A DNA stretch of 11,785 nt. It comes from Promethearchaeota archaeon (lineage in GTDB: Archaea > Asgardarchaeota > Lokiarchaeia > Sigyniarchaeales > SOKP01). Made by a program: the position numbers and the translations under genes. The stretch spans positions 1 through 11,785 of the forward strand of contig JBHLLU010000091.1 in assembly GCA_048938895.1 (NCBI GenBank). Reading direction: 5' to 3'. Shown here piece after piece: positions 431 through 11,785 of the stretch. The first letter of the stretch is position 1. Every line of letters starts with the position of its first letter. The notes under the pieces were generated by a model, which worked only from the letters and a program-made list of their open reading frames with translations, made no database searches and was not told the DNA's origin.

Positions 431-892
431 CTAGACTCTTTGTCTTAGATATACTGCTTGTAGTCTAAGGACTTGATAAACATGACCGATTGTGTGATGG
501 ATAATGAATCCAAACCAATCTTCATACGTCATCTCTCTCCCGAAGGGAGATGTAAATTTATTTTGGAGATCTTCTTCTTTAAATTTAGATCTTGCCTCAG
601 CGTAGGCTTCAATAGCTGTATTAAACAATTCTAATAATTGTTGGGGTAAAGGTTCAGTAGATTCGGGATCTAACTTTATTGCTATCTCCTTATTATCTAC
701 ATCTGGATTAATCGTTTTTCTCGATGCCCAATTAAGTAGGCTGATAGCATGTATAAACAGATCAATAGCCGTCTGTTCCCCTTCAAATAACGGATTTCTC
801 ATGGATTCTTCAAAATGATTATCTTTACGTTTTTCAAACAAACTCTTAACATAATCATATACAAATTTCAATGATTTTATAGATTCTGGCAT
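431..892 (-). CDS. DinB/YfiT-superfamily protein (153 aa)
   Basis: Size, helical pattern, an N-terminal His (LFIHAIS) and the C-terminal 'FGREMTYEDWFGFIIHHTIGHVYQVLRL' with HxxxH match the three-His metal site of DinB/YfiT proteins. Confidence 0.8.
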   Translation of the reverse strand: MPESIKSLKFVYDYVKSLFEKRKDNHFEESMRNPLFEGEQTAIDLFIHAISLLNWASRKTINPDVDNKEIAIKLDPESTEPLPQQLLELFNTAIEAYAEARSKFKEEDLQNKFTSPFGREMTYEDWFGFIIHHTIGHVYQVLRLQAVYLRQRV

Positions 893-1013: not shown

Positions 1014-1988
1014 ATGGATAAATTCGAACTAATTAAAAAAGCTTTTAAAGTGGAACCCACTGAGAGAATTCCCTATGCTATTTGGAAACACTTCCCTGAG
1101 TTTGATAAAACTCCTGAAGGTCTTTTAAAAGCACAAATGGATTTTCAAAAAAAATTTGACTCTGATATAATTAAAATCTCAGTTTCAGGACGTGCTTTTG
1201 CTTCTGATTTTGGAGCAGAATTAGGAGGTTATGATCCTGTATCTGGATCTCGTATTTGTACAAAATATCCGATTGATAAAATAGAGGATTGGGAGAAAAT
1301 TAAGTATATTGAGGTAGAAGATGGCGAATTTGGAGCTCAAATTAAAGCTATGAAGCTCATTCATGCAGAAATTGACGGGAAAATACCTACTATGATGACT
1401 GTTTTTTCCCCTTTAATGGTAGCATCACAGATTGATCCCAATATACTTTTACACTACAGAAAGGATCCTCAACTAATTAAGGAATATTTAAATATAATTA
1501 TAAGAGCAATGACTGATTTCACAAAAGCATCTTTAGATGTGGGAGCTACGGGTATATTCTTAGCCACACAACATTTCAATAATAGACTAACCGATAAAGA
1601 ACGGGTAGAATTAGCATTCAATCCATTAAAAACTCTGATACAAAAATCAATAAAAAAGAAAAACTTTGTTGTCCTCCATTTGCATGGTGATAATCCCGAT
1701 TATAAATTAGCTACTAAATTACCTATAGACGCCATTAATTGGCATGATCAGCAAACGTCACCAAATCTTTCTGAAGCAAGGGAAATCTTTCAAGGAGGTC
1801 TTCTGGGGGGATTAAACGCAGAATCTTGGAAAGATATATCCGATCCTACGGCACTTGAGCCAAAAATCTCTTCTGTTTATGCAAACTTTAAAGGAGCAGG
1901 ATTAATAATGGCACCTGGTTGTGTCATTCCCCAATTTGTTAGTGATACTGTAATAGAGGTTGTAGTAAAAACCATCAAAAATCTTTAA
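1014..1988 (+). CDS. Uroporphyrinogen decarboxylase (URO-D)/MtaA-like superfamily protein, probably not a canonical HemE
   Basis: 324 aa TIM-barrel pattern: 'ERIP..WKHFP', 'TVFSPL', 'GATGIFLA', 'VLHLHG', 'INWH', 'LLGGLN', 'LIMAPGCVIP'. It lacks the HemE 'RQAGR' and C-terminal 'NLGHG' motifs. Confidence 0.8.
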   Translation: MDKFELIKKAFKVEPTERIPYAIWKHFPEFDKTPEGLLKAQMDFQKKFDSDIIKISVSGRAFASDFGAELGGYDPVSGSRICTKYPIDKIEDWEKIKYIEVEDGEFGAQIKAMKLIHAEIDGKIPTMMTVFSPLMVASQIDPNILLHYRKDPQLIKEYLNIIIRAMTDFTKASLDVGATGIFLATQHFNNRLTDKERVELAFNPLKTLIQKSIKKKNFVVLHLHGDNPDYKLATKLPIDAINWHDQQTSPNLSEAREIFQGGLLGGLNAESWKDISDPTALEPKISSVYANFKGAGLIMAPGCVIPQFVSDTVIEVVVKTIKNL

Positions 1989-2089: not shown

Positions 2090-3073
2090 GTGCAAAAATA
2101 TATTTCAGAGTATACTGATGAGGAAACATCTCTAAAATCGAAATATTTTGGTCCGAAATTTGACGCCCATGTTCACTTGGGGAGTATTGATGGTATTGAT
2201 AATTTAATTAAGTTTAGAGAAGAGTTTAACATCAAAAGGTCAATTGGTATTATCTGGGGGGACAACTATGACGAATTTGGGGCAAAATTCCCAAATATGT
2301 TTGTTTTAGCTAAATATTTTCGAAGCAGAGAGCTTTTTAAGGTAAAACCAGATCTTAAATTATTATCAGATTTAATCGAAAATATTTATCAACAAGGTTT
2401 TCCTGTTGTTAAATTTTGGTTTGGTCCGAGAGTGAGAGATTTTGTAAGAGATCAATATAAAATGGATCCACCAAAAATTCGCTTATCTGATCCATTGTTT
2501 AAGTCAATATTTGCGAAAATAGAGGAATTAGGCCTTATTTTATTGATACATGTTAGTGATCCGGATCTTTGGTACGAAAGAGTATATCAACCGGTTAGTC
2601 GGTACGGCACTAAAAAAGAACATATTGAGGATTTTGAAGAGATATTACTAAGTTTTCCAAATTTGAAGATCCAACAAGCACATTTCGGGAGTCAGCCAGA
2701 AGATCTTGAAAACCTTTCTAGGTGGTTTGATTCATATCCAAATTATTATATTGATACATCTTCAGCAAGATGGATGGCAAGAGAGCTTGGGAGATATCCA
2801 GAAAAAGCCAGAGAATTTTTTATTAAATATTCAGATAGAATTCTTTTTGGAACGGATATTGTGCAGGATCGAAATAAACCAATTTCAGAATACTATCGAA
2901 CTCGGTATTTTACCTTCCAGGCTATTTTAGAGACTCATTGTAGGGATGTTCCATTACCCTTTCCAGATCCTGAAAATAATAATAACACAAAGATAAATGG
3001 ATTGGATCTTCCTCTTGATGTACTTAAGAAAATCTATTGGGAGAACGCAAAAAAATTTTATAAGGTAAAATAA
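2090..3073 (+). CDS. Metal-dependent TIM-barrel amidohydrolase (amidohydrolase_2 family)
   Basis: GTG start; motifs 'FDAHVH' (HxH), 'LIHVSDP', 'AHFG', 'YIDTSS', 'DRILFGTD', 'KKIYWENAKKFY'. Confidence 0.85.
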   Translation: MQKYISEYTDEETSLKSKYFGPKFDAHVHLGSIDGIDNLIKFREEFNIKRSIGIIWGDNYDEFGAKFPNMFVLAKYFRSRELFKVKPDLKLLSDLIENIYQQGFPVVKFWFGPRVRDFVRDQYKMDPPKIRLSDPLFKSIFAKIEELGLILLIHVSDPDLWYERVYQPVSRYGTKKEHIEDFEEILLSFPNLKIQQAHFGSQPEDLENLSRWFDSYPNYYIDTSSARWMARELGRYPEKAREFFIKYSDRILFGTDIVQDRNKPISEYYRTRYFTFQAILETHCRDVPLPFPDPENNNNTKINGLDLPLDVLKKIYWENAKKFYKVK

Positions 3074-3081
3074 ACTTAGCC

Positions 3082-4791
3082 TTATAGAAAAATTTCCATT
3101 CCTGGAGGAAGCCACGGTTTATAAATTAGAAAGTAGTCGTTGAAAAAATTAGATAAACCATTCTTTAAACATAAATCCAACCAATGAAAGACTGCTTCTT
3201 GACCTTGTTTTTCTTTAGCGATTTTCCCAAACATATTGCTCAAATAACTTGAAACAATATTATTATCTTCTGGAGCCATATGAGTTGATTGGATTTCCAT
3301 CAAACTATACTCGATTTGCTTCATATATAATTGAAAACTATTTAAAATACCTATTAGTTTTTCTCTTTCAGGTTTAAAATCGTAGGGTTTATTGAACAAC
3401 TGATTAAATTTCCCAAGATTTTTCATTAAACCTTTTATATTATGTAAGAAATTTGGTATATTTAGTTTAACAAGGTCTTGTTCCAGCTTCCTTGTGATAA
3501 ATGTATTTATAGTCAATTTATTGTAATAGTAAATAACTGGTAAAGAGATGGTTTTATCAAAACTCTTAATAAGGGGGATTCCCATAGTATAATATCTAGC
3601 CTCTCCTGTACCTGCAATATGTATAGCAGGTTGAATTGTTTTGGATACTAAATATTGACGAGATTCAACCCTAGGAGTAAAATTAGTTACAAATTTAGAA
3701 AGATCAGGATTATCTTTTTCAAGGCTAAAATCTATTAAATCTCCACAATTATTGCATTGACATTTGACATGTATCATCGAAGAATAATCTTGGCAGGACA
3801 ATTCCAATCTTTTACAATTGCACTCATCACTAGTACACTCATAAAAAAAAGGAACAAAATCATCCCGAATCTCTCTTAAAGGAGGTTGAACTTTGTGATT
3901 TAGAAATTGATTTCTTATGTCTAGGTAAGTATTAACATACTTATTCTGATTTTCTAATAAATTTTCGTAAAATGGTCTTAACATCTTTTTATATTCTAAA
4001 TCTGAAGCGGAAATGAAAAGATATCCTTGATCAAAAATGATATTGGTAATAGTCCCAATTATGTTAATAAACCAATCTGTATAGTTCTCTGAATTATTAT
4101 GCGCCATTTTGATTAACCGGAAGGCTTCTTCTAGCCGCTCTTCTAATAGCTTCTTATGCCAATTATCTTCTAAGCAAGAATTAATAGAGTTTTTATATTT
4201 TTTTCTAATTTCTTGAAATTGCTCTAAAAGATAAGGTAGAGACGGTAAAGGAAGATTTTTAATTCTCATATCTAGAAATTCCTTCTCAATTTCCGGCTCT
4301 ACTGATATCGAAAATCCATTAGGTGAATTGCTATGTGAAAATTTAGTTTTTATTAATTCTGAATGAACTTTATCATAATCAGCAACATAGAAAATTGGAA
4401 TTATCTTATTATCGAGATTTGAAAATGCTGCTCCACATGCAATTTTGTTAAAAAGGAATCTTTCTCCCCCTAAGAATTTTGGTTGATGAGAAACTTCTAA
4501 ATTAATACTTTCACTATCACTAAGAAATTTTTCTAAATTGATTTTAGCTTTATCCGTCAGCAGTCTATACTTACTATTTGTGGTTTTGAATATCTTTCCT
4601 AATCCTATTTTTATCTCATTACTAGTGGCATCTTTTTTCATTTCTTTATTTACTTTTTTTGCAAGAAGAACTGCATCATGCATCGACTGAGGTATCAGAT
4701 CTTTCATACCCTCAGAAATCCAAGATTTTTGTCCTTCTAAAGCATATAAAAGATAATATTTTAATGGATCTTCGTATTTATCAGCAGACAT
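3082..4791 (-). CDS. bshC: Divergent BshC-like protein (bacillithiol cysteine-adding enzyme family) with a Cys-rich insertion
   Basis: 569 aa. Segments align by eye with BshC motifs: 'SHQPKFLGGERFLFNKIA' (cf. GQQxGLFxGPLYxxxK), 'IPIFYVADYDKVHSEL' (cf. VPVFWxAxEDHDxxEI) and 'FTPRVESRQYLVSKTIQPAIHIAGTGEARYY' (cf. FSPNVxxRP...LP...GGPGExAY), followed by a C-terminal helical region. It lies directly downstream of a bshB1-like gene. Confidence 0.7.
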   Translation of the reverse strand: MSADKYEDPLKYYLLYALEGQKSWISEGMKDLIPQSMHDAVLLAKKVNKEMKKDATSNEIKIGLGKIFKTTNSKYRLLTDKAKINLEKFLSDSESINLEVSHQPKFLGGERFLFNKIACGAAFSNLDNKIIPIFYVADYDKVHSELIKTKFSHSNSPNGFSISVEPEIEKEFLDMRIKNLPLPSLPYLLEQFQEIRKKYKNSINSCLEDNWHKKLLEERLEEAFRLIKMAHNNSENYTDWFINIIGTITNIIFDQGYLFISASDLEYKKMLRPFYENLLENQNKYVNTYLDIRNQFLNHKVQPPLREIRDDFVPFFYECTSDECNCKRLELSCQDYSSMIHVKCQCNNCGDLIDFSLEKDNPDLSKFVTNFTPRVESRQYLVSKTIQPAIHIAGTGEARYYTMGIPLIKSFDKTISLPVIYYYNKLTINTFITRKLEQDLVKLNIPNFLHNIKGLMKNLGKFNQLFNKPYDFKPEREKLIGILNSFQLYMKQIEYSLMEIQSTHMAPEDNNIVSSYLSNMFGKIAKEKQGQEAVFHWLDLCLKNGLSNFFNDYFLIYKPWLPPGMEIFL

Positions 4792-4802
4792 TTCAAATTT
4801 TC

Positions 4803-5495
4803 CTAATATAAATTGTCAAAATCTATCATTAAATATTCTGGACTTATGAAACCCTCAGCATATTTTACTCCAATTTGATATCCTAGAAATCCTGCCCTTT
4901 CTTTAATATAGTCTAAAATTCTCAGGTGTTTTTTGTTATCTATAAACTGGCTTTTATATGCTTTAAGAGCCCTAATTTTATCTTCAATCGAATCTGAAAT
5001 ATCAATTAAGAAGTCGGTTCTGCGTCTTTTATCTTTTACATGTGAATGATCAAAGTAAAAAACATATTTCGGGTAGTATTCAGGATACTTAGAGTTTGTT
5101 TTTGTAAGTTTTGCTTGAAATTTAGCCGCATTTACAATTTGATGGCAGGCTACATGGTCAGGATGCCAATCATCAGAGGGGTGAGTTATTATTATCTTAG
5201 GTTTATATTTACGAATTACTTCAGAAACCTTTTTTCTATTCTCTATCGAATTTTCAATATACCTATTAGTCATATCTAAAGTTATTCTTACATCTAGAAC
5301 TAATATTTCAGAAGCTGCTTTGGCTTCTCCTAATCTTTTCTCAACAGTACCGAATGGTGTAGGTTCTCCATTTGTTAAATCTAATATACCTATTCTCTTA
5401 CCTTTTTTCTTATAATGAGCAATAGTCCCTCCACATCCAATTTCAGCATCATCTGGATGTGCTCCAATTACTAAAATATCTAATTCAAGGTCCAT
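4803..5495 (-). CDS. bshB1: BshB1-like N-acetylglucosaminyl deacetylase (PIG-L/LmbE family)
   Basis: 'LDILVIGAHPDDAEIGCGGTI', 'GILDLTNGE', 'HPDH', 'KIRALKAYKSQF' and 'GVKYAEGF' are hallmark BshB1/PIG-L zinc deacetylase motifs; 230 aa. Confidence 0.85.
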   Translation of the reverse strand: MDLELDILVIGAHPDDAEIGCGGTIAHYKKKGKRIGILDLTNGEPTPFGTVEKRLGEAKAASEILVLDVRITLDMTNRYIENSIENRKKVSEVIRKYKPKIIITHPSDDWHPDHVACHQIVNAAKFQAKLTKTNSKYPEYYPKYVFYFDHSHVKDKRRRTDFLIDISDSIEDKIRALKAYKSQFIDNKKHLRILDYIKERAGFLGYQIGVKYAEGFISPEYLMIDFDNLY

Positions 5496-5504
5496 TTTAA
5501 TCGT

Positions 5505-6407
5505 TTAACTTTCTAATTCTCTTATATGTGTAAATATCGATTTCTGTACTTTCCTAAAATTATCTTTATCTATATCTTCCACACTATTGAAATAATTCGA
5601 AAAAATTGATTTATAAACCTCAATACTTGTTTTTAAAGGAATATTTAAAAGTGATTCAATCAAATGAATATATTTTTCAATTCTTTCTTCTCCTTTCTGA
5701 AATAAAAAACTATCCTTTGCATTTTTTAAAATTGATTCCCTATCTTTATAAATTAATGGTACGCCTATTTCTACAATTTTATATCCTTTTTTCATTGATT
5801 TAATCCAGATTTCAATGGGTATCTCATAACCACTTACTTCTAATTCCAATTCATTAATTGCATCACATTTATATGCTTTTAATCCACAAAATGCATCTGT
5901 AATCGAAAATCCAATAGTATTTAAGATTCCAGTAATGATCGCATTAACAAGAAATCTATCTTTCCACGGATTTCGCCAGAAGAAATCTGAATTTTTAAAT
6001 CTTGAACCAGAAATGATTTGTTCTGGGGGATTTTCAAGAATATGCTCAATAAATCTATATAAACATTTTGGTTCATGTTGACCATCCATATCAAATGATA
6101 TAATCCAAGAATAACCCATTTCATACGCGTATTTAAAACCAGTTATAAGCGTATAACCGTAACCTTTATTATCCTCAAAATGATAAAGAGTAAATAAGGA
6201 ATCTTTATTATTTTCAGTTAAAATTTGTTTCGTCCTATCAGTAGAACCGTCGTTGATAATAAGGATTTCAAAATGTAATTCTTTTTGTTTCAGTAAATTT
6301 TGCTGTACTTTACGAAGGTGTTCTATAATGTTTTCAATGTTTTCTTCTTCATTAAAACATGGTATTAACAAAAGAATGTCTATCTTTTTTTCAGAAATAT
6401 CGAACAA
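5505..6407 (-). CDS. Glycosyltransferase family 2, DPM1-like (GT-A fold), no evident transmembrane helix
   Basis: TTG start, with an in-frame TGA at 6429-6431 that precludes a longer ORF. Motifs 'IPCFNEE', 'INDGSTD', 'NKGYG', 'FDMDGQH' (DxD), 'SGSRF', 'TDAFCGLKAY'. It is the first gene of the GT2-bshB1-bshC run, with 9 and 11 nt spacers. Confidence 0.9.
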   Translation of the reverse strand: MFDISEKKIDILLLIPCFNEEENIENIIEHLRKVQQNLLKQKELHFEILIINDGSTDRTKQILTENNKDSLFTLYHFEDNKGYGYTLITGFKYAYEMGYSWIISFDMDGQHEPKCLYRFIEHILENPPEQIISGSRFKNSDFFWRNPWKDRFLVNAIITGILNTIGFSITDAFCGLKAYKCDAINELELEVSGYEIPIEIWIKSMKKGYKIVEIGVPLIYKDRESILKNAKDSFLFQKGEERIEKYIHLIESLLNIPLKTSIEVYKSIFSNYFNSVEDIDKDNFRKVQKSIFTHIRELES

Positions 6408-6472
6408 CTCATTATTTTCTAAGATTCTTCATTGAAACAACACATCTAAATTTTTAGAATTGTTGGTTATGA

Positions 6473-6483
6473 TTTATAAAAAA
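6473..6483 (-). promoter_or_regulatory. TATA-like box candidate for the GT2-bshB1-bshC operon
   Basis: The minus strand reads TTTTTTATAAA about 65-75 nt upstream of the TTG at 6407. The AT-rich background makes this weak. Confidence 0.3.
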
Positions 6484-6581
6484 GGCTATTTCGAAATTAA
6501 ATCAAATGTTTTTCCCTTAATAATCAATTCAAAATATTGATTTGCTCTATTTATTAATATAATAATCTTGCACCGATATAG

Positions 6582-6589
6582 TTTTTAAA
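6582..6589 (+). promoter_or_regulatory. TATA-like box for the helicase gene (probable short or leaderless transcript)
   Basis: TTTTTAAA lies 28-35 nt upstream of ATG 6617, the canonical archaeal spacing. Confidence 0.4.
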
Positions 6590-6616
6590 AACAAAGAATA
6601 TATTTTTCTCTATAAT

Positions 6617-8764
6617 ATGCAAATGGACTCAAAGGAGTATTTTAATAATCCTTATCTTAAAAAGAATACCGTTCACTTTCGACACTATCAAAATAATGTT
6701 GCAAACTGTTGTAAGAATAGAAATTCTTTAGTAGTTTTGCCAACTGGATTAGGAAAAACAATTATTGGCATTTTATTGATTGCTCATTCGCTAAAAAAAT
6801 ATCCGAATGCAAAAGTAGTGATACTTGCACCGACTAGACCCTTAGTTTTTCAGCATAAAGCTTCTTGTGAAAAATTCCTTAATTTGGATTCTGAAGATAT
6901 TATGTCATTTACAGGTAAGATCTCTCCTGAAAAAAGAATTAATCTATATAAAAATTCTAAAATTATTATTTCTACACCTCAAGTAATAAATAATGATATT
7001 GCAAGAGGACGTTATGATTTAAGACAGGTTTCTTTAATTATTTTCGATGAGGCTCATAAGACAAAAGGAAATTATGCTTATAATTTAATCTCGAAAGAGT
7101 ATATTGAAACCTGCAGCGATCCTCTTATCTTAGGTTTGACAGCATCCCCAGGAAAAGACTATGAGGGTATCCAATTAATATGTGATAATTTACATATTGA
7201 AAATATTGTATTTAGAAATTATCAAGATGAGGATGTAAAAGATTACATTTATGATATAGACACTTACCTAAATTTTGTAAGTCTACCAGCAAGAATATTA
7301 GAATTAAGCCAGGTATGGTATAGCTTATTTAAAAAGTTTTTAAAATTCTTTATTGACCGTAAATTGATAAATCCTTATAAAAAATATTTTTCAAAATTGG
7401 ATTTTCTTCGAATTTTACACGATCTTACACTATCATACAAGTATGAAAAGGAATACATTTCAGAAGAAGAATATAAAGAATATTTGTTGTATAATGATCC
7501 AAAAATCATTGATATAATTAATGAGAACAATATTGATGTAAATTCAGTTTATTCATATTGCTCTAGTTGTATTTCTTTACTACATGCTAAAGATTTACTA
7601 GAAACCCAAGAGATTTCCCTTTTCCTTTCTTTCATTGAAAAGATTAAATTTAGAGCGGAACAAGGGGAAATGTCCGCAAAAAGAATTGTTGAATCAAAAC
7701 ACTTTAAATTAGTTTTTTCTTCAATTCAAAAAGAAAAGGACACTAATTTAGCCCATCCCAAAGTAGAAAAGATTATATCAATTTTACGTGAAGAAAAAGA
7801 GGAATTTAGTAACAAAAAGATAATTATATTCACACAATTTCGAGAAATGGCAGAATTTTTGAAAATAAAATTACAAACCGAATTTAAAAATCAATTGTCT
7901 ATCGAGAAATTTATAGGGCAATCATCAAAGATTGATGACTCTGGATTTTCTCAAAAATATCAATCAGAGATCCTACAAAAATTCAGAAATGATGAAATTA
8001 ATGTGTTGATTGCAACTAGTGTCGCTGAAGAAGGAATAGATATTCCAAATGTAGATGCTATTATTTTCTATGAACCAGTTCCTTCTGAAATACGATTGAT
8101 TCAAAGACGGGGAAGAACTGGAAGGTTTGCACCCGGAAGATGTTATATCTTAATTACTGAAGATACTGTTGATATTCCTTTTTATATTGTTGCTAAGAGA
8201 AAAGAAGCTACAATGAAATCTGTGTTAAATGATTATTCCGCGATACAATTAACCAATAATTTCGAACGCAAATCAATTACATTTTCTCTACCTGACATAG
8301 AAAGATGTAGTGATTTTGATTTTATTCAAAATTTTAAAGAAAGAAGAGATAGGGAAAAGGAACTATTAGCTAATCGTTCTATTGAAGAAATTTTATGTCA
8401 GCTTGATGAATTTTCTAAAAGTAAGGATTATGAGAAAATTAAGGAATTTGGTGTTACGTTCTATTCAGATTTAATCAATTTAGAGCATTCTGATTTGAAG
8501 AACAAAATATTAAAATTGAAAGGTAAAAAGAGCCTAGCGTCTGTAAAACAGAAGATATATTTAAACAAAAACATGAAAATGCTTATAAATTTAGTAAAAA
8601 CTTACGGAGACGATGGTAAATTGGATTTTGATGAATTAAAAAAACTTGCTATGGAAGAAGAAATTTTAGATAGAAAGTTCTTCACTCACTTTAATCAAGC
8701 ATGTTATCGGGGGTATCTGAGGAAGCAGGAAAACTACGTTCAATATATTATGGATGATGATTAG
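6617..8764 (+). CDS. hef: Hef/Mph1/FANCM-like SF2 DEAH-box DNA helicase without a recognisable ERCC4 nuclease domain
   Basis: 'RHYQ' Q-motif, 'LPTGLGKT' (I), 'LAPTRPLVFQH' (Ia), 'FDEAH' (II), 'GLTASPG' (III), 'HPK', 'IIIFTQFRE' (IV), 'ATSVAEEGIDIP' (V), 'FYEPVPSEIRLIQRRGRTGR' (VI). These are diagnostic of archaeal Hef helicases. Confidence 0.9.
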   Translation: MQMDSKEYFNNPYLKKNTVHFRHYQNNVANCCKNRNSLVVLPTGLGKTIIGILLIAHSLKKYPNAKVVILAPTRPLVFQHKASCEKFLNLDSEDIMSFTGKISPEKRINLYKNSKIIISTPQVINNDIARGRYDLRQVSLIIFDEAHKTKGNYAYNLISKEYIETCSDPLILGLTASPGKDYEGIQLICDNLHIENIVFRNYQDEDVKDYIYDIDTYLNFVSLPARILELSQVWYSLFKKFLKFFIDRKLINPYKKYFSKLDFLRILHDLTLSYKYEKEYISEEEYKEYLLYNDPKIIDIINENNIDVNSVYSYCSSCISLLHAKDLLETQEISLFLSFIEKIKFRAEQGEMSAKRIVESKHFKLVFSSIQKEKDTNLAHPKVEKIISILREEKEEFSNKKIIIFTQFREMAEFLKIKLQTEFKNQLSIEKFIGQSSKIDDSGFSQKYQSEILQKFRNDEINVLIATSVAEEGIDIPNVDAIIFYEPVPSEIRLIQRRGRTGRFAPGRCYILITEDTVDIPFYIVAKRKEATMKSVLNDYSAIQLTNNFERKSITFSLPDIERCSDFDFIQNFKERRDREKELLANRSIEEILCQLDEFSKSKDYEKIKEFGVTFYSDLINLEHSDLKNKILKLKGKKSLASVKQKIYLNKNMKMLINLVKTYGDDGKLDFDELKKLAMEEEILDRKFFTHFNQACYRGYLRKQENYVQYIMDDD

Positions 8765-9611
8765 CTTTCTTCCTTTTTATCTTAGAGAAATAAAGCAGAA
8801 CTGTGTTAAAACTAATTATCCCTAATGTTATTTCAATTTGGTATCCAAAAATTGTTTCTTCTGAAGATTGTAACCGGAATGTAAGAAGAGCTGAACGATC
8901 ATAGCGTAATTCAGCGAATTTAAGCACTCCATGATTATCATAATTAAGTATTATTTCGAATTCTTTAGAACCTGCTTTAATAGCTCCCTCAGGGCACGAA
9001 AATTTAAATCCATTTTCTTGTTGTGCTATTGTCATATTTTCTGAGAGATCCAATAATATTTGAAAATCATCTGCCACTTTACTCCAATTTAGATTATAAG
9101 GAGCAAAAAGACCTACATAATAAAAATCTCCTGGACTGTACGTTATAGCATTATATAAAGCTAAATTAACCAAGTTAATAGTATAATTACCAGTATCCCC
9201 TGACATGATCCAAATAGGTATAGGTCCCGCTGGAACAGGTAAAAACCCGATACCAGGGATTTCTATCGATATTTCGATATTTGCAATCATATAATTGAAA
9301 TCACCCCAGCCTGTATTATTTGTATATTCACCTTCTAAAGATATTATAGTTGCTGCCAAATCGAATTTTTCGTTAAAACCATAAGAGAATAATGTCTCGA
9401 AGTCTGGAAATTGAGTTTTTATGCTATCTAGCTTATCAGAATAATCTTCATTGAATGTATTGAAGGTAGCTTGATTTACAGAGATTTCCCAAGAATATGT
9501 TTCACCTACGTTTACTCCAACATACTCATGAGAGATAGCACGTGAATAGTTAATTAAGGAAAACAAGAGGAAGCTAAACAATAAGAGACTCAATATTACT
9601 GGTTTTTTCAT
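8748..9611 (-). CDS. Secreted or surface protein with N-terminal signal peptide and C-terminal membrane anchor (Loki-CTERM-like)
   Basis: The likely start is ATG 9611 (MKKPVILSLLLFSFLLFSLINYSRA, a signal peptide); the ORF track uses GTG 9620. The mature region begins 'YVGVNVGETYSW'. The C-terminus 'SSEETIFGY-QIEITLGIISFNTVLLYF-SKIKRKK' is motif + hydrophobic helix + basic tail. Its 3' end overlaps the helicase gene by 17 nt. Confidence 0.7.
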   Translation of the reverse strand: MKKPVILSLLLFSFLLFSLINYSRAISHEYVGVNVGETYSWEISVNQATFNTFNEDYSDKLDSIKTQFPDFETLFSYGFNEKFDLAATIISLEGEYTNNTGWGDFNYMIANIEISIEIPGIGFLPVPAGPIPIWIMSGDTGNYTINLVNLALYNAITYSPGDFYYVGLFAPYNLNWSKVADDFQILLDLSENMTIAQQENGFKFSCPEGAIKAGSKEFEIILNYDNHGVLKFAELRYDRSALLTFRLQSSEETIFGYQIEITLGIISFNTVLLYFSKIKRKKANHHP

Positions 9612-9674
9612 ATAACTCACACTCTTGAGGATTTTTGTTTAATGATAATAAGTATCCTCACTAAATCGCTATTA

Positions 9675-9701: not shown

Positions 9702-11785
9702 TTACTTAATCTTTTCATCTTTCTTTCTTAAAAAATAGAATCCCAAGACAACAAAGATGACCACCACTGGAAAAACAATAGCTGCAGGATTTCCTCCACT
9801 AAAAAGAAACAAATAATATGATATCGTTAAAATTGAGGCAAAGAAAGCAATAATACTTCCATATATACTTGCGAAATTTTTAAGGTGTCGTAAAGCCATA
9901 TTTAATTTAAAATTTGTATTTTTTATGACTTCAAGTTCAGTTTCATCAATCTCATCTAAGATCTCAGGATTTTCAAAATAGATTGCAAAACGAGGATCAA
10001 ACTTTCCCTTTAATTCTTCTGTACTTATGAGATAAAGTAAATGGTCTTGAATATTTTTCTTTTTAATTTTTAATTCATTATTTAAGAAGCTTATAGTTAA
10101 ATACTCATTTGCGACTGCTTTAATAGTCATTTCAATATATGATTTTAAAATTAATCTTTCTAATGATTTCACCTTCTCATTGAGGATTTCTGTGTATTCA
10201 TGTATAAACTTTTCAAAATCCTCCAATACAAATTTCGAGATCTGGTTAAAATTTTTAGATTGTTTGTGAAATTCTCGAATTTTTGCATTAGCATTTCTAT
10301 CAATTTCTTTTATCTCAGATTCGATACTTTTTGCTCTTTTTTGAATTATAATATTAATCCTTTTAAATTCTCTTAGCTCGATATTATCTTCTACTCTTCT
10401 TTCAAGGTTACCTAACAGTTGACTCAATTTTATCTTACAATCATTTATGTAATCTATTAATTTTCCACGAAATGATTCATTTTTCATAATTTCAATTTGA
10501 TCATTAACCTTATCAACCTTATTATTGAAATCTTCCATAAAATCGTTCTTTTTTTTAACATAGAATTCTCTAATCTCCGGTATTAATTTGTTTGAACCCT
10601 CTGTCTCGTTTGCAGCATTTTTTATTTCATTTTCTATTGTATCTTGAGTATCTCTTGACTTTTCCCTAAATTCATGTCTTTTAATTCCAAAATCTGTTTG
10701 TAAATCTAAATAATAATCGCTTTCTTCAGACATTTTTAAAAACATATTAAAATATTCTTTTAATTCTATTTTCAGAGAGGTATAATGCTGTTGAATGAAT
10801 GATTGTAACGAATTAAAAACATTTAAGTTATTTTTTATTTTTTGCATAGCTATTGCATCATTTTCTATTATTGATTCAAAATACTTCTTAGTTTTTAGAA
10901 ACTCTTGCCTCTCTTGATTAATCTGAAGTTCTTTAACTTTTTCATAAAACTTTTTGGGGATTTCCTCCTGAAAAACACTTAAATCATCAATTCTATTCTG
11001 GAGTTCTAACATATTTGTATTTAATGACAAATTTCTAATACTGGAATCATATAAACCTAAAATTTTTCCTACTCTTTCTCTATTTGATTTCAAGAGTTGA
11101 TTGTCAATATAATTTCTTAATTCCCTATTCAAATAATAATAATCTGTATAAACAAGGATGGTTTTTTCCTCTTCATTTAATTCGGCATTTATTAACGAAA
11201 TCTCTATCATATCCTTTAGTCTTTTTATTAAAAGCTTACAGCTTAGATTTACATTATCTTTCAAATCTGCAATTTTAATGTTGTTAGTCTTTTTTTCAAT
11301 CGCCAATATATTTAACTTATTTGAAAGGATATCATTGATATAATCATCTTTTAAATCCGCAACTTCATTTTGGAAAAACTGAGTGAATTTTTCCCATTGT
11401 AACATAGTTAAATTCGACTTTTCATCAAATTCTTCAATATTTTTACGACAATTATTTAATTTCTTAGTATAGAGTTTATTTGATTTATTAAAATTCGATA
11501 GTATTGAATCGAATGTTTTTGTCACTTCTTCAATTTTTATATTATTGGATAAATTGAATTTATTTTTAATATTCGATAATTCAGATTTTAAATTTGTGAT
11601 TTCCTGAGAGACAAAATCATCAAAATCTTTAATTTCTGTTTTACTTCTTTCAACAATTACTTTATCCTTAAATAACTGAGATTGAGATGCTATTGAATCT
11701 ATGATTGCTGATTCTAAGTTTTCAAGATTATCTTGCAAATGCTTATATAATAAATAGAGCTTCTGTTTGCTTTTAATCTCTGTCT
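9702..11785 (-). CDS. Large coiled-coil protein with two PCI/winged-helix-like segments and a C-terminal double transmembrane anchor; 5' end lies beyond the window
   Basis: The frame stays open upstream of the track's TTG 11738 to the window edge (...TEIKSKQKLYLLYKHLQDNLE). It has long K/E/N/L/I-rich heptad helices, the segments 'IKIADLKDNVNLSCKLLIKRLKDMIEISLINAELNEEEKTILV' and 'LTISFLNNELKIKKKNIQDHLLYLISTEELKGKFDPRFAIY', and two hydrophobic helices followed by 'RKKDEKIK' at the C-terminus. Confidence 0.75.
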   Translation of the reverse strand, partial: TEIKSKQKLYLLYKHLQDNLENLESAIIDSIASQSQLFKDKVIVERSKTEIKDFDDFVSQEITNLKSELSNIKNKFNLSNNIKIEEVTKTFDSILSNFNKSNKLYTKKLNNCRKNIEEFDEKSNLTMLQWEKFTQFFQNEVADLKDDYINDILSNKLNILAIEKKTNNIKIADLKDNVNLSCKLLIKRLKDMIEISLINAELNEEEKTILVYTDYYYLNRELRNYIDNQLLKSNRERVGKILGLYDSSIRNLSLNTNMLELQNRIDDLSVFQEEIPKKFYEKVKELQINQERQEFLKTKKYFESIIENDAIAMQKIKNNLNVFNSLQSFIQQHYTSLKIELKEYFNMFLKMSEESDYYLDLQTDFGIKRHEFREKSRDTQDTIENEIKNAANETEGSNKLIPEIREFYVKKKNDFMEDFNNKVDKVNDQIEIMKNESFRGKLIDYINDCKIKLSQLLGNLERRVEDNIELREFKRINIIIQKRAKSIESEIKEIDRNANAKIREFHKQSKNFNQISKFVLEDFEKFIHEYTEILNEKVKSLERLILKSYIEMTIKAVANEYLTISFLNNELKIKKKNIQDHLLYLISTEELKGKFDPRFAIYFENPEILDEIDETELEVIKNTNFKLNMALRHLKNFASIYGSIIAFFASILTISYYLFLFSGGNPAAIVFPVVVIFVVLGFYFLRKKDEKIK

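What the first reader, a model, noticed from the sequence alone, without database searches (positions are those of the whole stretch)
3082..6407. Bacillithiol-like operon in a probable Asgard archaeon, with a GT2 in place of BshA: candidate new low-molecular-weight thiol pathway
Seen: three co-oriented genes with 9 and 11 nt spacers, in pathway order glycosyltransferase -> deacetylase -> BshC-like ligase. Established: bacillithiol is made by BshA (retaining GT4, GT-B fold; alpha-GlcNAc-L-malate), BshB (PIG-L-family deacetylase) and BshC (cysteine addition); mycothiol likewise starts with a GT4 (MshA). Here the glycosyltransferase is an unrelated GT-A-fold GT2, a family that normally inverts configuration, and no bshA is in the window. 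Inference: the operon makes a Cys-hexosamine conjugate with a beta linkage and/or an acceptor other than malate, i.e. a thiol chemically different from bacillithiol and mycothiol, in a lineage whose redox thiol I do not know to be characterised.
Basis: partly seen in the sequence, partly recalled or inferred. Interest (0 to 1): 0.9.

Follow-up and report, generated by a model that had tools for sequence, protein, structure and literature searches.

The report
Variant bacillithiol-like gene cluster in Lokiarchaeia
A subset of Lokiarchaeia-type Asgard archaea carries a conserved gene island that looks like the bacterial bacillithiol pathway but starts with an unrelated sugar-transferring enzyme, so it probably makes a cysteine-sugar thiol that has not yet been described.

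Summary
Three co-oriented genes on the minus strand, separated by 9 and 11 nt, encode a GT2 glycosyltransferase, a BshB1-type deacetylase (over NCBIfam's cut-off) and a 569-aa protein. That protein barely matches BshC models by sequence, but its fold and its family profile match B. subtilis BshC. No BshA is found in the genome.

In the 301 Asgard genomes sampled, the GT2 orthologue occurs in exactly the 10 genomes of the window's order that carry this BshC type. GT2-BshB1-BshC order is kept in every genome and metagenome locus with room. Other Asgard families pair the same BshC type with a true BshA, or carry a complete bacterial-type bshC-bshB1-bshA operon. No genome has both BshA and this GT2 subfamily.

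The unit is larger than reported. An Amidohydro_2 gene is always adjacent, and a URO-D-like gene and a DinB_2 gene usually travel with it.

The GT2 is a membrane-anchor-less relative of polyprenyl-phosphate glycosyltransferases (DPMS, ArnC, GtrB), which invert configuration. This fits a different linkage or aglycone, but it also raises a lipid-acceptor rival.

The product chemistry is untested. Verdict: a new variant of a known pathway type.

The parts
5505..6407 (-). GT2 glycosyltransferase (300 aa, TTG start). It is a DPMS/ArnC/GtrB-like GT-A catalytic domain followed by three C-terminal amphipathic helices, with no transmembrane domain. It is the first gene of the operon.
   Evidence: PF00535, 92.7 bits. 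Best NCBIfam hit is PpgS at 75.8 bits, far under its 370 cut-off. Family profile versus PfDPMS 5MLZ gives E 3e-33. The AF2 model has pLDDT 90, and the best folds are ArnC, GtrB and DPMS. The strongest 19-aa hydropathy window is 1.63 at residues 152-170, and the model's C-terminal part is three helices. Orthologues start with M-F-D-I-S at the same place.
4803..5495 (-). BshB1-type LmbE/PIG-L zinc deacetylase (230 aa).
   Evidence: TIGR04001 scores 209.7 bits, over the 182.5 cut-off. It scores 134 bits to BC1534 (2IXD) and 132 bits to B. subtilis GlcNAc-alpha-malate deacetylase (6P2T), with the H-x-D-D and H-P-D-H motifs aligned.
3082..4791 (-). Asgard-type BshC-like protein (569 aa), a putative cysteine-adding enzyme. 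It carries a Cys-rich beta insertion around residues 312-358.
   Evidence: Profile A1 versus 4WBD gives E 2.6e-22. The AF2 model has pLDDT 93.9. Foldseek ranks 4WBD first (E 9.3e-17), then class I LysRS. C319, C346 and C349 are invariant in 31 sequences.
2090..3073 (+). Amidohydro_2 (PF04909) metal hydrolase/decarboxylase-family protein (327 aa), always adjacent to the BshC-like gene. Its role is unknown. Candidate roles are a fourth pathway step or a thiol-conjugate amidase.
   Evidence: PF04909, 72.8 bits. It is adjacent in 8 of 8 genome loci, co-directional in the three f2 loci, and adjacent in 9 of 9 metagenome loci with room. It occurs in the same 10 genomes of the order as the cluster. 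The H-x-H, H, H and D positions are invariant.
1014..1988 (+). URO-D / MtaA-like family protein (324 aa), usually part of the island in family f1.
   Evidence: PF01208, 81.9 bits. It is linked in 4 of 5 f1 genome loci and in 7 of 8 metagenome loci with room. It was not found in 4 of 4 complete same-genus genomes that lack the cluster.
431..892 (-). DinB_2 superfamily protein (153 aa), a candidate thiol S-transferase.
   Evidence: PF12867, 37.2 bits. It lies next to the cluster in the window, in G276 and in 6 of the 30 metagenome loci, in two different positions. It lies on other contigs in 3 further cluster genomes. It was not found in 4 of 4 complete same-genus genomes without the cluster.
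6408..6616 (.). A+T-rich divergent intergenic region between the GT2 gene and the Hef-like gene. It is the presumed promoter region of the operon.
   Evidence: Sequence only: a TTTTTATAAAT stretch lies about 70 nt upstream of the TTG start. No promoter test was made.

Best explanation
The island encodes a bacillithiol/mycothiol-type pathway for a low-molecular-weight cysteinyl-hexosamine thiol, in which the first enzyme has been replaced. Proposed steps follow. (1) The soluble, DPMS-like GT2 transfers a HexNAc, presumably from UDP-GlcNAc or UDP-GalNAc, to an acceptor. This step is inferred. GT2 enzymes of this subfamily invert configuration, so a beta-linked product is expected, possibly on an anionic (carboxylate or phosphate) acceptor. 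(2) The BshB1-type zinc deacetylase frees the 2-amino group. Family membership is shown; the substrate is inferred. (3) The Asgard-type BshC-like enzyme adds cysteine to that amine. The fold is shown; the chemistry is inferred and has not been reconstituted even for bacterial BshC. The adjacent Amidohydro_2 protein and the co-travelling DinB_2 protein plausibly use or recycle the thiol, for example as conjugate amidase and S-transferase. Alternatively the amidohydrolase supplies a missing step. This last part is speculative. In evolutionary terms the BshC-like gene descends with the other Asgard-type genes. In the window's order, the GT4 BshA and the LmbE deacetylase that accompany it elsewhere were exchanged for a GT2 and a bacterial-type BshB1.
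For: Fold and profile identity of gene 3 with BshC. Gene 2 is over the BshB1 equivalog cut-off, with its catalytic motifs aligned to solved BshB structures. The operon structure has 9- and 11-nt spacers. Linkage in genomes: GT2-BshB1-BshC' in 7 of 7 genome loci of families f1 and f2 that had room, and the eighth locus is cut inside BshB1. Linkage in metagenomes: of 30 loci found with the GT2 alone, BshB1 follows in 26 of 26 with room and BshC' in 17 of 17 with room; two of the 30 look like duplicates. Gene order is kept down to about 40-50% protein identity. Phyletic pattern over 301 Asgard genomes: the GT2 orthologue (E<=1e-75) occurs in the same 10 genomes as BshC' of f1/f2. BshA is over its cut-off in 133 genomes, all in families f7, f9, f14, f16, f20, f26, f27 and f29. 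The GT2 subfamily (E<=1e-25) occurs in 32 genomes, none of them among those 133. In those other families BshA lies next to the same Asgard-type BshC-like gene. This shows that this BshC type normally works with a HexNAc-transferring first enzyme. The BshC tree puts f1+f2 as one clade (SH-aLRT 100) inside the Asgard-type clade. No cryptic BshA was found: the best two GT4 genes are either present in all 5 genomes tested, or present in 2 genomes without the cluster and absent from a cluster-bearing genome. The GT2 is not a housekeeping dolichyl-phosphate sugar synthase: it is found in only 10 of the 76 order genomes sampled, and it shows no hydrophobic segment beyond the helix at 152-170. DinB_2 is linked in two different arrangements and is present only in cluster-bearing genomes among those tested. 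PfDPMS chemistry (inverting; acceptor phosphate held by Arg117, Arg131 and Ser135) is taken from passages of PMC5526996.
Against: There are no biochemical data, and no RNA holder was listed. BshC's own reaction is unknown even in Bacillus (PMC5790435, passages), so 'adds cysteine' is borrowed from genetics in bacteria. Gene 3 is far below the BshC model cut-off (29.6 versus 265.8 bits). The nearest solved relatives of the GT2 all use a lipid phosphate acceptor, and it keeps the equivalents of the phosphate-binding Arg117 (R136) and probably Arg131 (R151). The known bacillithiol redox partners were not found in the genome: YtxJ no match, Brx PF06491 no match, YpdA best 74 bits against a 339.9 cut-off. 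The cluster is patchy, so it cannot be the lineage's general redox buffer (2 of 22 further genomes sampled in the genus). The complementary BshA/GT2 distribution rests on few independent lineages (f1+f2, f24, f30 against the rest). Co-occurrence of adjacent genes largely restates their linkage. In f24 and f30 the related GT2 is not next to the bshB or bshC-like genes.
Confidence: 0.55

Rival explanations
1. Lipid-linked sugar pathway. The GT2 works like its closest relatives (DPMS, ArnC, GtrB, PpgS) and makes polyprenyl- or dolichyl-phosphate-HexNAc at the membrane surface. The PIG-L enzyme then de-N-acetylates the lipid-linked sugar. This is the logic of ArnC followed by ArnD, and of GlcNAc-PI de-N-acetylation (both recalled). 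The BshC-like enzyme acylates the freed amine. The product would be a modified lipid-linked sugar for a surface glycan or a membrane lipid, not a soluble thiol.
For: Profile and fold matches are best to polyprenyl-phosphate glycosyltransferases: 5MLZ E 3e-33, and ArnC and GtrB at the top of Foldseek. The DxDxQ motif and R136/R151 correspond to the DPMS metal and acceptor-phosphate residues. A hydrophobic interface-type helix at 152-170 is kept. According to PMC5526996 (passage), a DPMS variant lacking its TM domain was still targeted; the passage shown breaks off there, so the destination (membrane) is my reading and was not seen.
Against: There is no TM domain. DPMS Ser135 is replaced (V154/N155) and Lys178 is replaced by E195. 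The deacetylase is over the equivalog cut-off for a soluble-substrate enzyme and is closest to GlcNAc-malate deacetylases. Sister Asgard lineages pair the same BshC type with a true BshA, which acts on a soluble acceptor. The co-travelling DinB_2 fits thiol chemistry better.
Confidence: 0.2
2. An aminosugar conjugate that is not a thiol. The cluster makes a HexN-based small molecule, such as a solute, cofactor or secondary metabolite, and the BshC-like ligase attaches an amino acid or acid other than cysteine. The Amidohydro_2 and URO-D-like enzymes (both from families rich in decarboxylases; recalled) tailor it.
For: BshC's substrate and mechanism are unproven. Gene 3 is very divergent from bacterial BshC: 29.6 bits, with a long branch in the tree. 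Bacillithiol-dependent redox partners are missing. Two extra enzymes of unknown role are conserved in the island.
Against: The residues invariant across Asgard-type BshC-like proteins are shared between the GT2-linked and BshA-linked clades, which suggests the same chemistry. The BshA-linked clade sits in gene sets that otherwise look like bacillithiol synthesis. DinB_2 co-occurs with the cluster.
Confidence: 0.15
3. The GT2 is an accessory, not the first step. Some unrecognised enzyme makes the HexNAc-aglycone, possibly ordinary GlcNAc-malate, and the GT2 decorates the thiol or an unrelated molecule. On this reading the end product could be ordinary bacillithiol or a glycosylated form of it.
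For: The genome holds 8 GT4 matches to the BshA model at 37-123 bits, and only the best two were tested for co-distribution.
Against: The GT2 is the first gene of the operon, 9 nt upstream of bshB1. It is never separated from bshB1 in 26 of 26 metagenome loci and 7 of 7 genome loci with room. No genome of the 301 has both BshA and this GT2 subfamily. The two best GT4 candidates do not track the cluster.
Confidence: 0.1

Closest known systems
Bacillithiol biosynthesis BshA-BshB-BshC (Bacillus, Deinococcus and others)
   Same: The logic is the same: HexNAc transfer, then LmbE-type de-N-acetylation, then a BshC-type enzyme. The deacetylase is a BshB1 equivalog by score. The third enzyme has the BshC fold.
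   Different: The first enzyme is a GT-A-fold GT2 of the inverting DPMS type instead of the GT4 BshA. The BshC-like protein is far below the family cut-off and carries a Cys-rich insertion that is absent from the B. subtilis sequence in the alignment. Brx, YtxJ and YpdA partners were not found. An Amidohydro_2 gene is always linked.
Asgard-type BshA + BshC-like clusters (families f7, f9, f14, f16, f20, f26, f27 of the sampled phylum)
   Same: They share the same clade of BshC-like proteins, 25-31% identical to this one, including the Cys-rich insertion. An LmbE deacetylase is often adjacent.
   Different: There the neighbouring glycosyltransferase is a true BshA over the TIGR03999 cut-off. The deacetylase there is a different LmbE subtype: 25-31% identical to this one, lacking an 8-residue segment, and under the BshB1 cut-off.
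Mycothiol biosynthesis MshA-MshB-MshC-MshD
   Same: GlcNAc transfer, LmbE-family deacetylation and cysteine ligation by a class I aminoacyl-tRNA-synthetase-like enzyme. MshC (3C8Z) appears at rank 42 in the fold search.
   Different: MshA is GT4 and the aglycone is inositol. MshB scores only 47 bits on gene 2. There is no acetyltransferase in the island.
Polyprenyl-phosphate glycosyltransferases DPMS, GtrB, ArnC, PpgS
   Same: The GT2 shares their catalytic domain, the DxDxQ metal motif, the Arg at the acceptor-phosphate site and the interface-helix layout.
   Different: It has no transmembrane domain. The Ser135 and Lys178 equivalents are changed. Its distribution is patchy and tied to bshB1 and the bshC-like gene, rather than to glycan assembly genes.

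Membership tests
BshC (TIGR03998 / PF10079) | Score over the curated family cut-off | tested here: not met
   TIGR03998 scores 29.6 bits against a 265.8 cut-off. There is no Pfam hit at E<=0.01. Many homologues carry a precomputed PF10079 label.
BshC (TIGR03998 / PF10079) | BshC fold (Rossmann-type catalytic core plus coiled-coil, as in 4WBD) | tested here: met
   Foldseek ranks 4WBD first (E 9.3e-17, TM 0.66/0.70) using a model with pLDDT 93.9. Profile versus the 4WBD sequence gives E 2.6e-22 over residues 59-493.
BshC (TIGR03998 / PF10079) | Genomic association with bshA and bshB | tested here: inconclusive
   bshB1 is adjacent. bshA is absent here, but it is adjacent to the sister Asgard-type genes.
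BshC (TIGR03998 / PF10079) | Adds cysteine to GlcN-malate | not testable with these tools
   The reaction has not been reconstituted even for bacterial BshC (PMC5790435, passages).
BshB1 (TIGR04001) | Score over the equivalog cut-off | tested here: met
   209.7 bits against 182.5. The same holds in 9 of the 10 cluster genomes, and the tenth copy is cut by a contig end.
BshB1 (TIGR04001) | Zinc ligands His12/Asp15/His113 and catalytic Asp14/His110 of BC1534 | tested here: met
   Aligned as H13/D16/H114 and D15/H111. Residue roles come from PMC4101496 (passages).
BshB1 (TIGR04001) | Substrate-contact residues Arg53 and Arg109 of BC1534 | tested here: inconclusive
   The Arg53 equivalent (R54) is kept. 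The Arg109 equivalent is Trp (W110). It is Trp or Phe in the cluster's copies and Tyr in the deacetylases of BshA-linked Asgard clusters, so it does not discriminate.
BshA (TIGR03999, GT4) | A GT4 protein over the family cut-off in the genome | tested here: not met
   The best hit is 123.4 bits against 273.7. None is over the cut-off in any sampled f1 or f2 genome.
Polyprenyl-phosphate GT2 (DPMS/GtrB/ArnC type) | GT-A catalytic domain with DxDxQ and closest sequence and fold to this group | tested here: met
   D106-x-D108-x-Q110 is present. 5MLZ gives E 3e-33. ArnC, GtrB and DPMS are the top folds.
Polyprenyl-phosphate GT2 (DPMS/GtrB/ArnC type) | Acceptor-phosphate site Arg117/Arg131/Ser135 (PfDPMS) | tested here: inconclusive
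   R136 aligns with Arg117. R151 lies one column from Arg131. Ser135 aligns with V154, and the neighbouring N155 is invariant. Lys178 aligns with E195.
Polyprenyl-phosphate GT2 (DPMS/GtrB/ArnC type) | Membrane anchoring by TM helices | tested here: not met
   The three strongest 19-aa hydropathy windows all lie in the helix at 151-174 (maximum 1.63). The C-terminal 70 residues are modelled as three helices. Only the top three windows were printed, so the C-terminal values themselves were not read.
Bacillithiol redox system | Bacilliredoxins (PF06491), YtxJ (TIGR04019) and YpdA (TIGR04018) in the genome | tested here: not met
   No match, no match, and a best of 74.3 bits against 339.9.

The most novel reading that the evidence does not exclude
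Some Lokiarchaeia make a so far undescribed low-molecular-weight thiol. It would be cysteinyl-hexosamine joined by a beta-glycosidic or sugar-1-phosphate bond to an aglycone other than alpha-linked malate. The pathway would be a mosaic: a soluble descendant of dolichyl-phosphate glycosyltransferases, a bacterial-type BshB1 and an Asgard-type BshC. The always-adjacent Amidohydro_2 protein tracks BshC-bearing families across the phylum. It could be the missing fourth component of BshC-type cysteine addition, or the system's conjugate amidase.
Probability: 0.35. Interest if true: 0.85.

Novelty: new variant of a known kind. Interest (0 to 1): 0.7.

Why it matters
New low-molecular-weight thiols are rare discoveries, and no bacillithiol-type thiol has been detected in any archaeon (PMC7278568, passage). 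A 2025 preprint that searched RefSeq reported no archaeon with the pathway (10.1101/2025.07.06.663066, passages). The survey made here gives a different picture.

- Bacillithiol-type gene sets are widespread in Asgard archaea and come in at least four architectures.
- The window holds the one in which the committed glycosyltransferase has been swapped for an unrelated fold that inverts configuration. That would be a natural experiment in non-orthologous displacement, and probably a new compound.
- Homologues of the BshC-like and BshB1 proteins are named from the cultured Candidatus Lokiarchaeum ossiferum, so the prediction may be directly testable.
- The tight link of an Amidohydro_2 protein to BshC-like genes offers a concrete candidate for a question open since 2010: what BshC needs in order to work (PMC5790435).

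Tried and rejected
Direct family scans of the 569-aa protein were nearly blank: no Pfam hit and 29.6 bits on TIGR03998. I therefore relied on a family profile and a fold search.

I considered a cryptic BshA and rejected it. None of 8 GT4 matches reaches the cut-off. The best candidate is present in 5 of 5 genomes tested, with or without the cluster. The second is present in 2 genomes without the cluster and absent from cluster-bearing G276. The other six GT4 matches were not tested.

I considered a housekeeping dolichyl-phosphate sugar synthase and rejected it, because the orthologue is found in only 10 of the 76 order genomes sampled.

I tried the Arg109 contact residue of BshB as a test for a malate aglycone. 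It was uninformative, because both Asgard deacetylase types lack the Arg.

Neighbourhoods of the Amidohydro_2 gene in 8 genomes of other families showed no conserved neighbour.

PDB sequence searches found nothing useful for the Amidohydro_2 protein, the URO-D-like protein (no hits) or the DinB_2 protein (only E about 0.7). The Atlas gave only generic amidohydrolase clusters.

Expression: no RNA holder was listed for the stretch.

Complex prediction for the BshC-like protein with Amidohydro_2 returned no answer. This counts neither for nor against binding.

The f24/f30 GT2 relatives (28-34% identical to P0003 in alignment A3) are not next to bshB or bshC-like genes. Their role as a BshA substitute stays a lead only.

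Literature searches were as follows.
- 'bacillithiol' with 'Asgard' gave 3 papers.
- 'bacillithiol' with 'Lokiarchaeota' gave 1 paper.
- 'bacillithiol' with 'lokiarchae' gave 1 paper.
- 'BshC' with 'archaea' gave 14 papers.
- 'bacillithiol' with GT2 terms gave nothing relevant in the 15 papers listed out of 132.
- One search was ranked by Asgard terms and is not informative.

None of the papers I read in passages describes a GT2-linked variant. Supplements were closed and were not seen. The supplementary tables of PMC7278568 and of the NmbA preprint could list archaeal hits. A survey of bacterial genomes for GT2-bshB1-bshC adjacency could not be made with the tools at hand.

Full report
WHAT IS IN THE WINDOW.
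The window is the whole of contig C29 (11,785 bp) of a 4.65-Mb, 98.7%-complete assembly. G+C is 25-34% throughout, with no break at the cluster. One search gives ten ORFs. Three consecutive minus-strand ORFs match the finding: 5505-6407 (300 aa, TTG), 4803-5495 (230 aa) and 3082-4791 (569 aa). The sequence shows 9 nt and 11 nt between them. Orthologues of the first gene begin M-F-D-I-S at the position of the TTG, which supports that start.

WHAT THE THREE PROTEINS ARE.
- Gene 1 is a family-2 glycosyltransferase (PF00535, 92.7 bits). Its best NCBIfam hits are PpgS, AglJ, PgaC, PgfS and ArnC, all far below their cut-offs.
- Gene 2 is a PIG-L/LmbE enzyme that passes the BshB1 equivalog cut-off (209.7 against 182.5 bits). 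[quoted passage not shown]
- Gene 3 has no Pfam hit and only 29.6 bits on TIGR03998. A 31-sequence family alignment hits the BshC structure 4WBD at E 2.6e-22. A confident model (pLDDT 93.9, pTM 0.93) has 4WBD as its best PDB match (E 9.3e-17, TM 0.66/0.70), followed by class I lysyl-tRNA synthetase.
- The family is small. An exhaustive HMMER scan of 1.84 billion representatives found 90 proteins at E<=0.001. The named close homologues are nearly all Asgard MAGs, and NCBI already calls some of them BshC.
- The Asgard-type proteins share invariant C319, C346 and C349 in a four-stranded insertion. In the alignment, the B. subtilis sequence has no cysteines there.

NO BshA.
The genome has 8 GT4 matches to TIGR03999. 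The best is 123.4 bits against a cut-off of 273.7. The best candidate is present in all 5 same-genus genomes tested, four of which lack the cluster. The second is present in 2 genomes without the cluster and absent from a cluster-bearing genome. The remaining six were not tested.

COMPARATIVE SURVEY (301 genomes sampled from the phylum, own genome included; families are coded f1 to f30).
- Relatives of gene 3 occur in 160 genomes: f1 5/68, f2 4/7, f7 26/28, f9 70/76, f14 17/19, f16 11/11, f20 1/1, f24 19/21, f26 1/1, f27 3/3 and f30 2/2, and in none of the other families.
- BshA is over its cut-off in 133 genomes, all in f7, f9, f14, f16, f20, f26, f27 and f29.
- In fetched loci of f9, f14, f7, f16 and f27, BshA lies beside or near the BshC-like gene. 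It is adjacent in 5 of 6 loci and 6 kb away in the sixth. An LmbE deacetylase is close by in 5 of the 6.
- f29 genomes and one f22 genome carry a complete bacterial-type operon: bshC at 375-386 bits in 5 of 5 genomes tested, with bshB1 and bshA next to it.
- f24 and f30 have the BshC-like gene without BshA. It lies next to a class I/II aminotransferase in 4 of the 4 f24 loci scanned, and next to a class V aminotransferase in the one f30 locus.

THE WINDOW'S ARCHITECTURE.
- This architecture is confined to its own order (f1+f2). The GT2 orthologue (E<=1e-75) is found in exactly the 10 genomes, own included, that hold the BshC-like gene there, and in none of the other 66.
- BshB1 over its cut-off is found in 9 of these 10, and the tenth copy is cut by a contig end.
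- All 8 fetched loci keep the order GT2-BshB1-BshC'. One is cut inside BshB1, and the GT2 of that genome lies at the end of another contig.
- A metagenome scan seeded only with the GT2 returned 30 loci, two of which look like duplicates. BshB1 follows the GT2 in 26 of 26 loci with room. BshC' follows in 17 of 17 (one further locus is borderline). Three of these loci are only 43-50% identical to the query.
- At E<=1e-25 the wider GT2 subfamily is found in 32 genomes: f1/f2 10, f24 19, f30 1, f11 1 and f17 1. None of these has BshA over its cut-off.
- These patterns rest on few independent lineages, and co-occurrence of adjacent genes mostly restates linkage. What carries weight is that gene order persists over deep divergence and that BshA and the GT2 never coincide.

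EVOLUTION.
- I built a tree of 30 BshC-type sequences, chosen from the loci in hand. It includes 7 of the 70 f9 genomes and the window's own sequence, with the bacterial-type sequences as the distant group.
- The Asgard type forms one clade (SH-aLRT 100), and its families form separate clades. The f1+f2 clade has support 100.
- This fits descent within the phylum, with replacement of the partner enzymes in the ancestor of the f1+f2 genes. The tree is midpoint-rooted only.
- The deacetylase was replaced too. It is 25-31% identical to the LmbE genes of BshA-linked Asgard clusters, which lack an 8-residue segment. It is 43-51% identical to many BshB1 proteins outside the Asgard orthologue set, most of them unnamed, one named from a Limnochordales bacterium.

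THE GT2 IN DETAIL.
- A 17-sequence profile hits P. furiosus dolichyl-phosphate mannose synthase (5MLZ, E 3e-33, residues 3-247), then ArnC and GtrB.
- The model (pLDDT 90.0) is most similar to ArnC, GtrB and DPMS. Soluble GT-A enzymes such as mannosylglycerate synthase come at rank 39.
- PMC5526996 (passages) describes DPMS as follows. It is inverting. Asp91 and Gln93 bind the metal. Arg117, Arg131 and Ser135 hold the acceptor phosphate. Lys178 touches the phosphoester.
- Comparing that with the alignment: D106/D108/Q110 match the DxDxQ motif and R136 matches Arg117. R151 lies one column from Arg131, Ser135 aligns with V154 (next to invariant N155), and Lys178 aligns with E195.
- There is no TM domain. 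The most hydrophobic 19-residue window (1.63) is the interface-type helix at 152-170, and the C-terminal 70 residues are three helices.
- So the enzyme is a soluble or peripheral descendant of lipid-phosphate glycosyltransferases. It keeps a cationic acceptor site, which could bind a phosphate or a carboxylate.
- Inversion from a UDP-alpha-HexNAc donor would give a beta product, unlike the alpha-GlcNAc-malate that BshA makes. The alpha substrate is named in the PDB title seen, and the GT4 class of BshA comes from PMC5790435.

THE ISLAND IS LARGER.
- Amidohydro_2 (2090-3073, PF04909) adjoins the BshC-like gene in 8 of 8 genome loci. It is convergent in f1 and co-directional directly downstream in the three f2 loci, and it is split into two ORFs in one of those. 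It is adjacent in 9 of 9 metagenome loci with room. Its metal-ligand positions are invariant.
- Over the phylum the Amidohydro_2 protein is found in 146 genomes. In f1/f2 these are the same 10 genomes. The other counts are f7 22/28, f9 69/76, f14 17/19, f24 16/21, f26 1/1, f29 9/11 and f30 2/2. None is found in f16, f20 or f27, and none in any family without a BshC-type gene found here. One f22 genome has the bacterial-type operon, and f22 has no hit.
- Outside the order the Amidohydro_2 gene is unlinked and has no conserved neighbours.
- A URO-D/MtaA-like gene (1014-1988) and a DinB_2 gene (431-892) also travel with the island in f1. Neither was found in 4 of 4 complete same-genus genomes without the cluster. 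DinB_2 is present in 5 of the 6 f1 cluster genomes, linked in two and on other contigs in three. It is adjacent in 6 of the 30 metagenome loci, in two different positions. URO-D-like is linked in 4 of 5 f1 genome loci and in 7 of 8 metagenome loci with room.
- The DinB superfamily includes thiol S-transferases of the bacillithiol and mycothiol systems. This is recalled knowledge; BstA is named as the transferase in PMC5790435.
- Flanks beyond these genes differ between loci. Hef and the PCI-like gene are upstream in the window and in some metagenome loci, and other genes are upstream elsewhere. The unit therefore behaves as an accessory island.

AGAINST A BACILLUS-LIKE REDOX ROLE.
The genome shows no bacilliredoxin (PF06491), no YtxJ and no YpdA over its cut-off. 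Only 2 of 22 further genomes sampled in the genus carry the cluster. A specialised role, such as detoxification or a cofactor, is therefore more likely than a general redox buffer.

LITERATURE.
- Rawat and Maupin-Furlow 2020 (PMC7278568, passages) reported 39 InterPro hits each for BshA and BshC in archaea, mostly Asgard. [quoted passage not shown]
- The NmbA preprint (passages) found no archaeon with the pathway in RefSeq.
- Chandrangsu et al. 2018 (PMC5790435, passages) state that the BshC reaction has not been reconstituted, possibly for lack of a cofactor, substrate or protein.
- My searches found no description of a GT2-linked variant. Supplements were closed.

VERDICT.
- The best reading (confidence 0.55) is a bacillithiol/mycothiol-type thiol pathway whose first enzyme, and also whose deacetylase subtype, have been replaced. 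It most likely yields a chemically different cysteinyl-hexosamine compound.
- A lipid-linked sugar pathway (0.2), a non-thiol aminosugar conjugate (0.15) and an accessory role for the GT2 (0.1) remain open.
- It is a new variant of a known kind. It is of clear interest for archaeal redox biochemistry and for the unsolved BshC mechanism, but it is so far supported by comparative genomics and structure prediction only.

Noticed in passing
window 2090-3073 (+); genome hits: The Amidohydro_2 protein next to the BshC-like gene has a distribution across the phylum that follows BshC-bearing families. It is found in 146 of 301 genomes and in none of the families without a BshC-type gene found here, but it is also absent from f16, f20 and f27. 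Outside the window's order it is unlinked. It is a candidate new component of bacillithiol-type systems in Asgard archaea.
   Followed up: partly
L089 (G123:C20), L090 (G042:C95), L091 (G238:C41): Some Asgard genomes (f29 and one f22) carry a complete bacterial-type bshC-bshB1-bshA operon, with all three genes over the NCBIfam cut-offs. This is at odds with a 2025 preprint's statement that no archaeon has the pathway.
   Followed up: partly
L069-L073 (f24), L074 (f30): In f24 and f30 the Asgard-type BshC-like gene lies without BshA next to an aminotransferase: class I/II in f24 and class V in f30. These genomes also hold an unlinked ~298-aa GT2 that is 28-34% identical to the window's and sub-threshold BshB1-like genes at 140-164 bits. 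This may be the same pathway with its genes dispersed.
   Followed up: partly
window 3082-4791 (-), residues about 312-358: Asgard-type BshC-like proteins carry a four-stranded insertion with invariant C319, C346 and C349, resembling a zinc ribbon. In the alignment, the B. subtilis BshC sequence has no cysteines there.
   Followed up: no
L066:4846-5823 and L068:8336-9358: The f2 orthologues of the GT2 have Cys-rich C-terminal tails of about 25-40 residues that are absent in f1.
   Followed up: no
L067:2382-3415: In one f2 genome (G285) the Amidohydro_2 gene is split into two ORFs of 223 and 117 aa. This could be a frameshift or an assembly error.
   Followed up: no
window 8748-9620 (-) and 9702-11738 (-): A 290-aa ORF has no family hit, and its end overlaps the 3' end of the Hef-like gene by 17 nt. 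A 678-aa ORF has only a weak PCI-domain match (20.9 bits, under the cut-off).
   Followed up: no
window 1014-1988 (+): The URO-D/MtaA-like protein of the island has H-L-H-G-D where, from recall, methylcobamide:CoM methyltransferases carry a His/Cys zinc site. It has a single Cys near the C-terminus. Its role beside a putative thiol pathway is unexplained.
   Followed up: no
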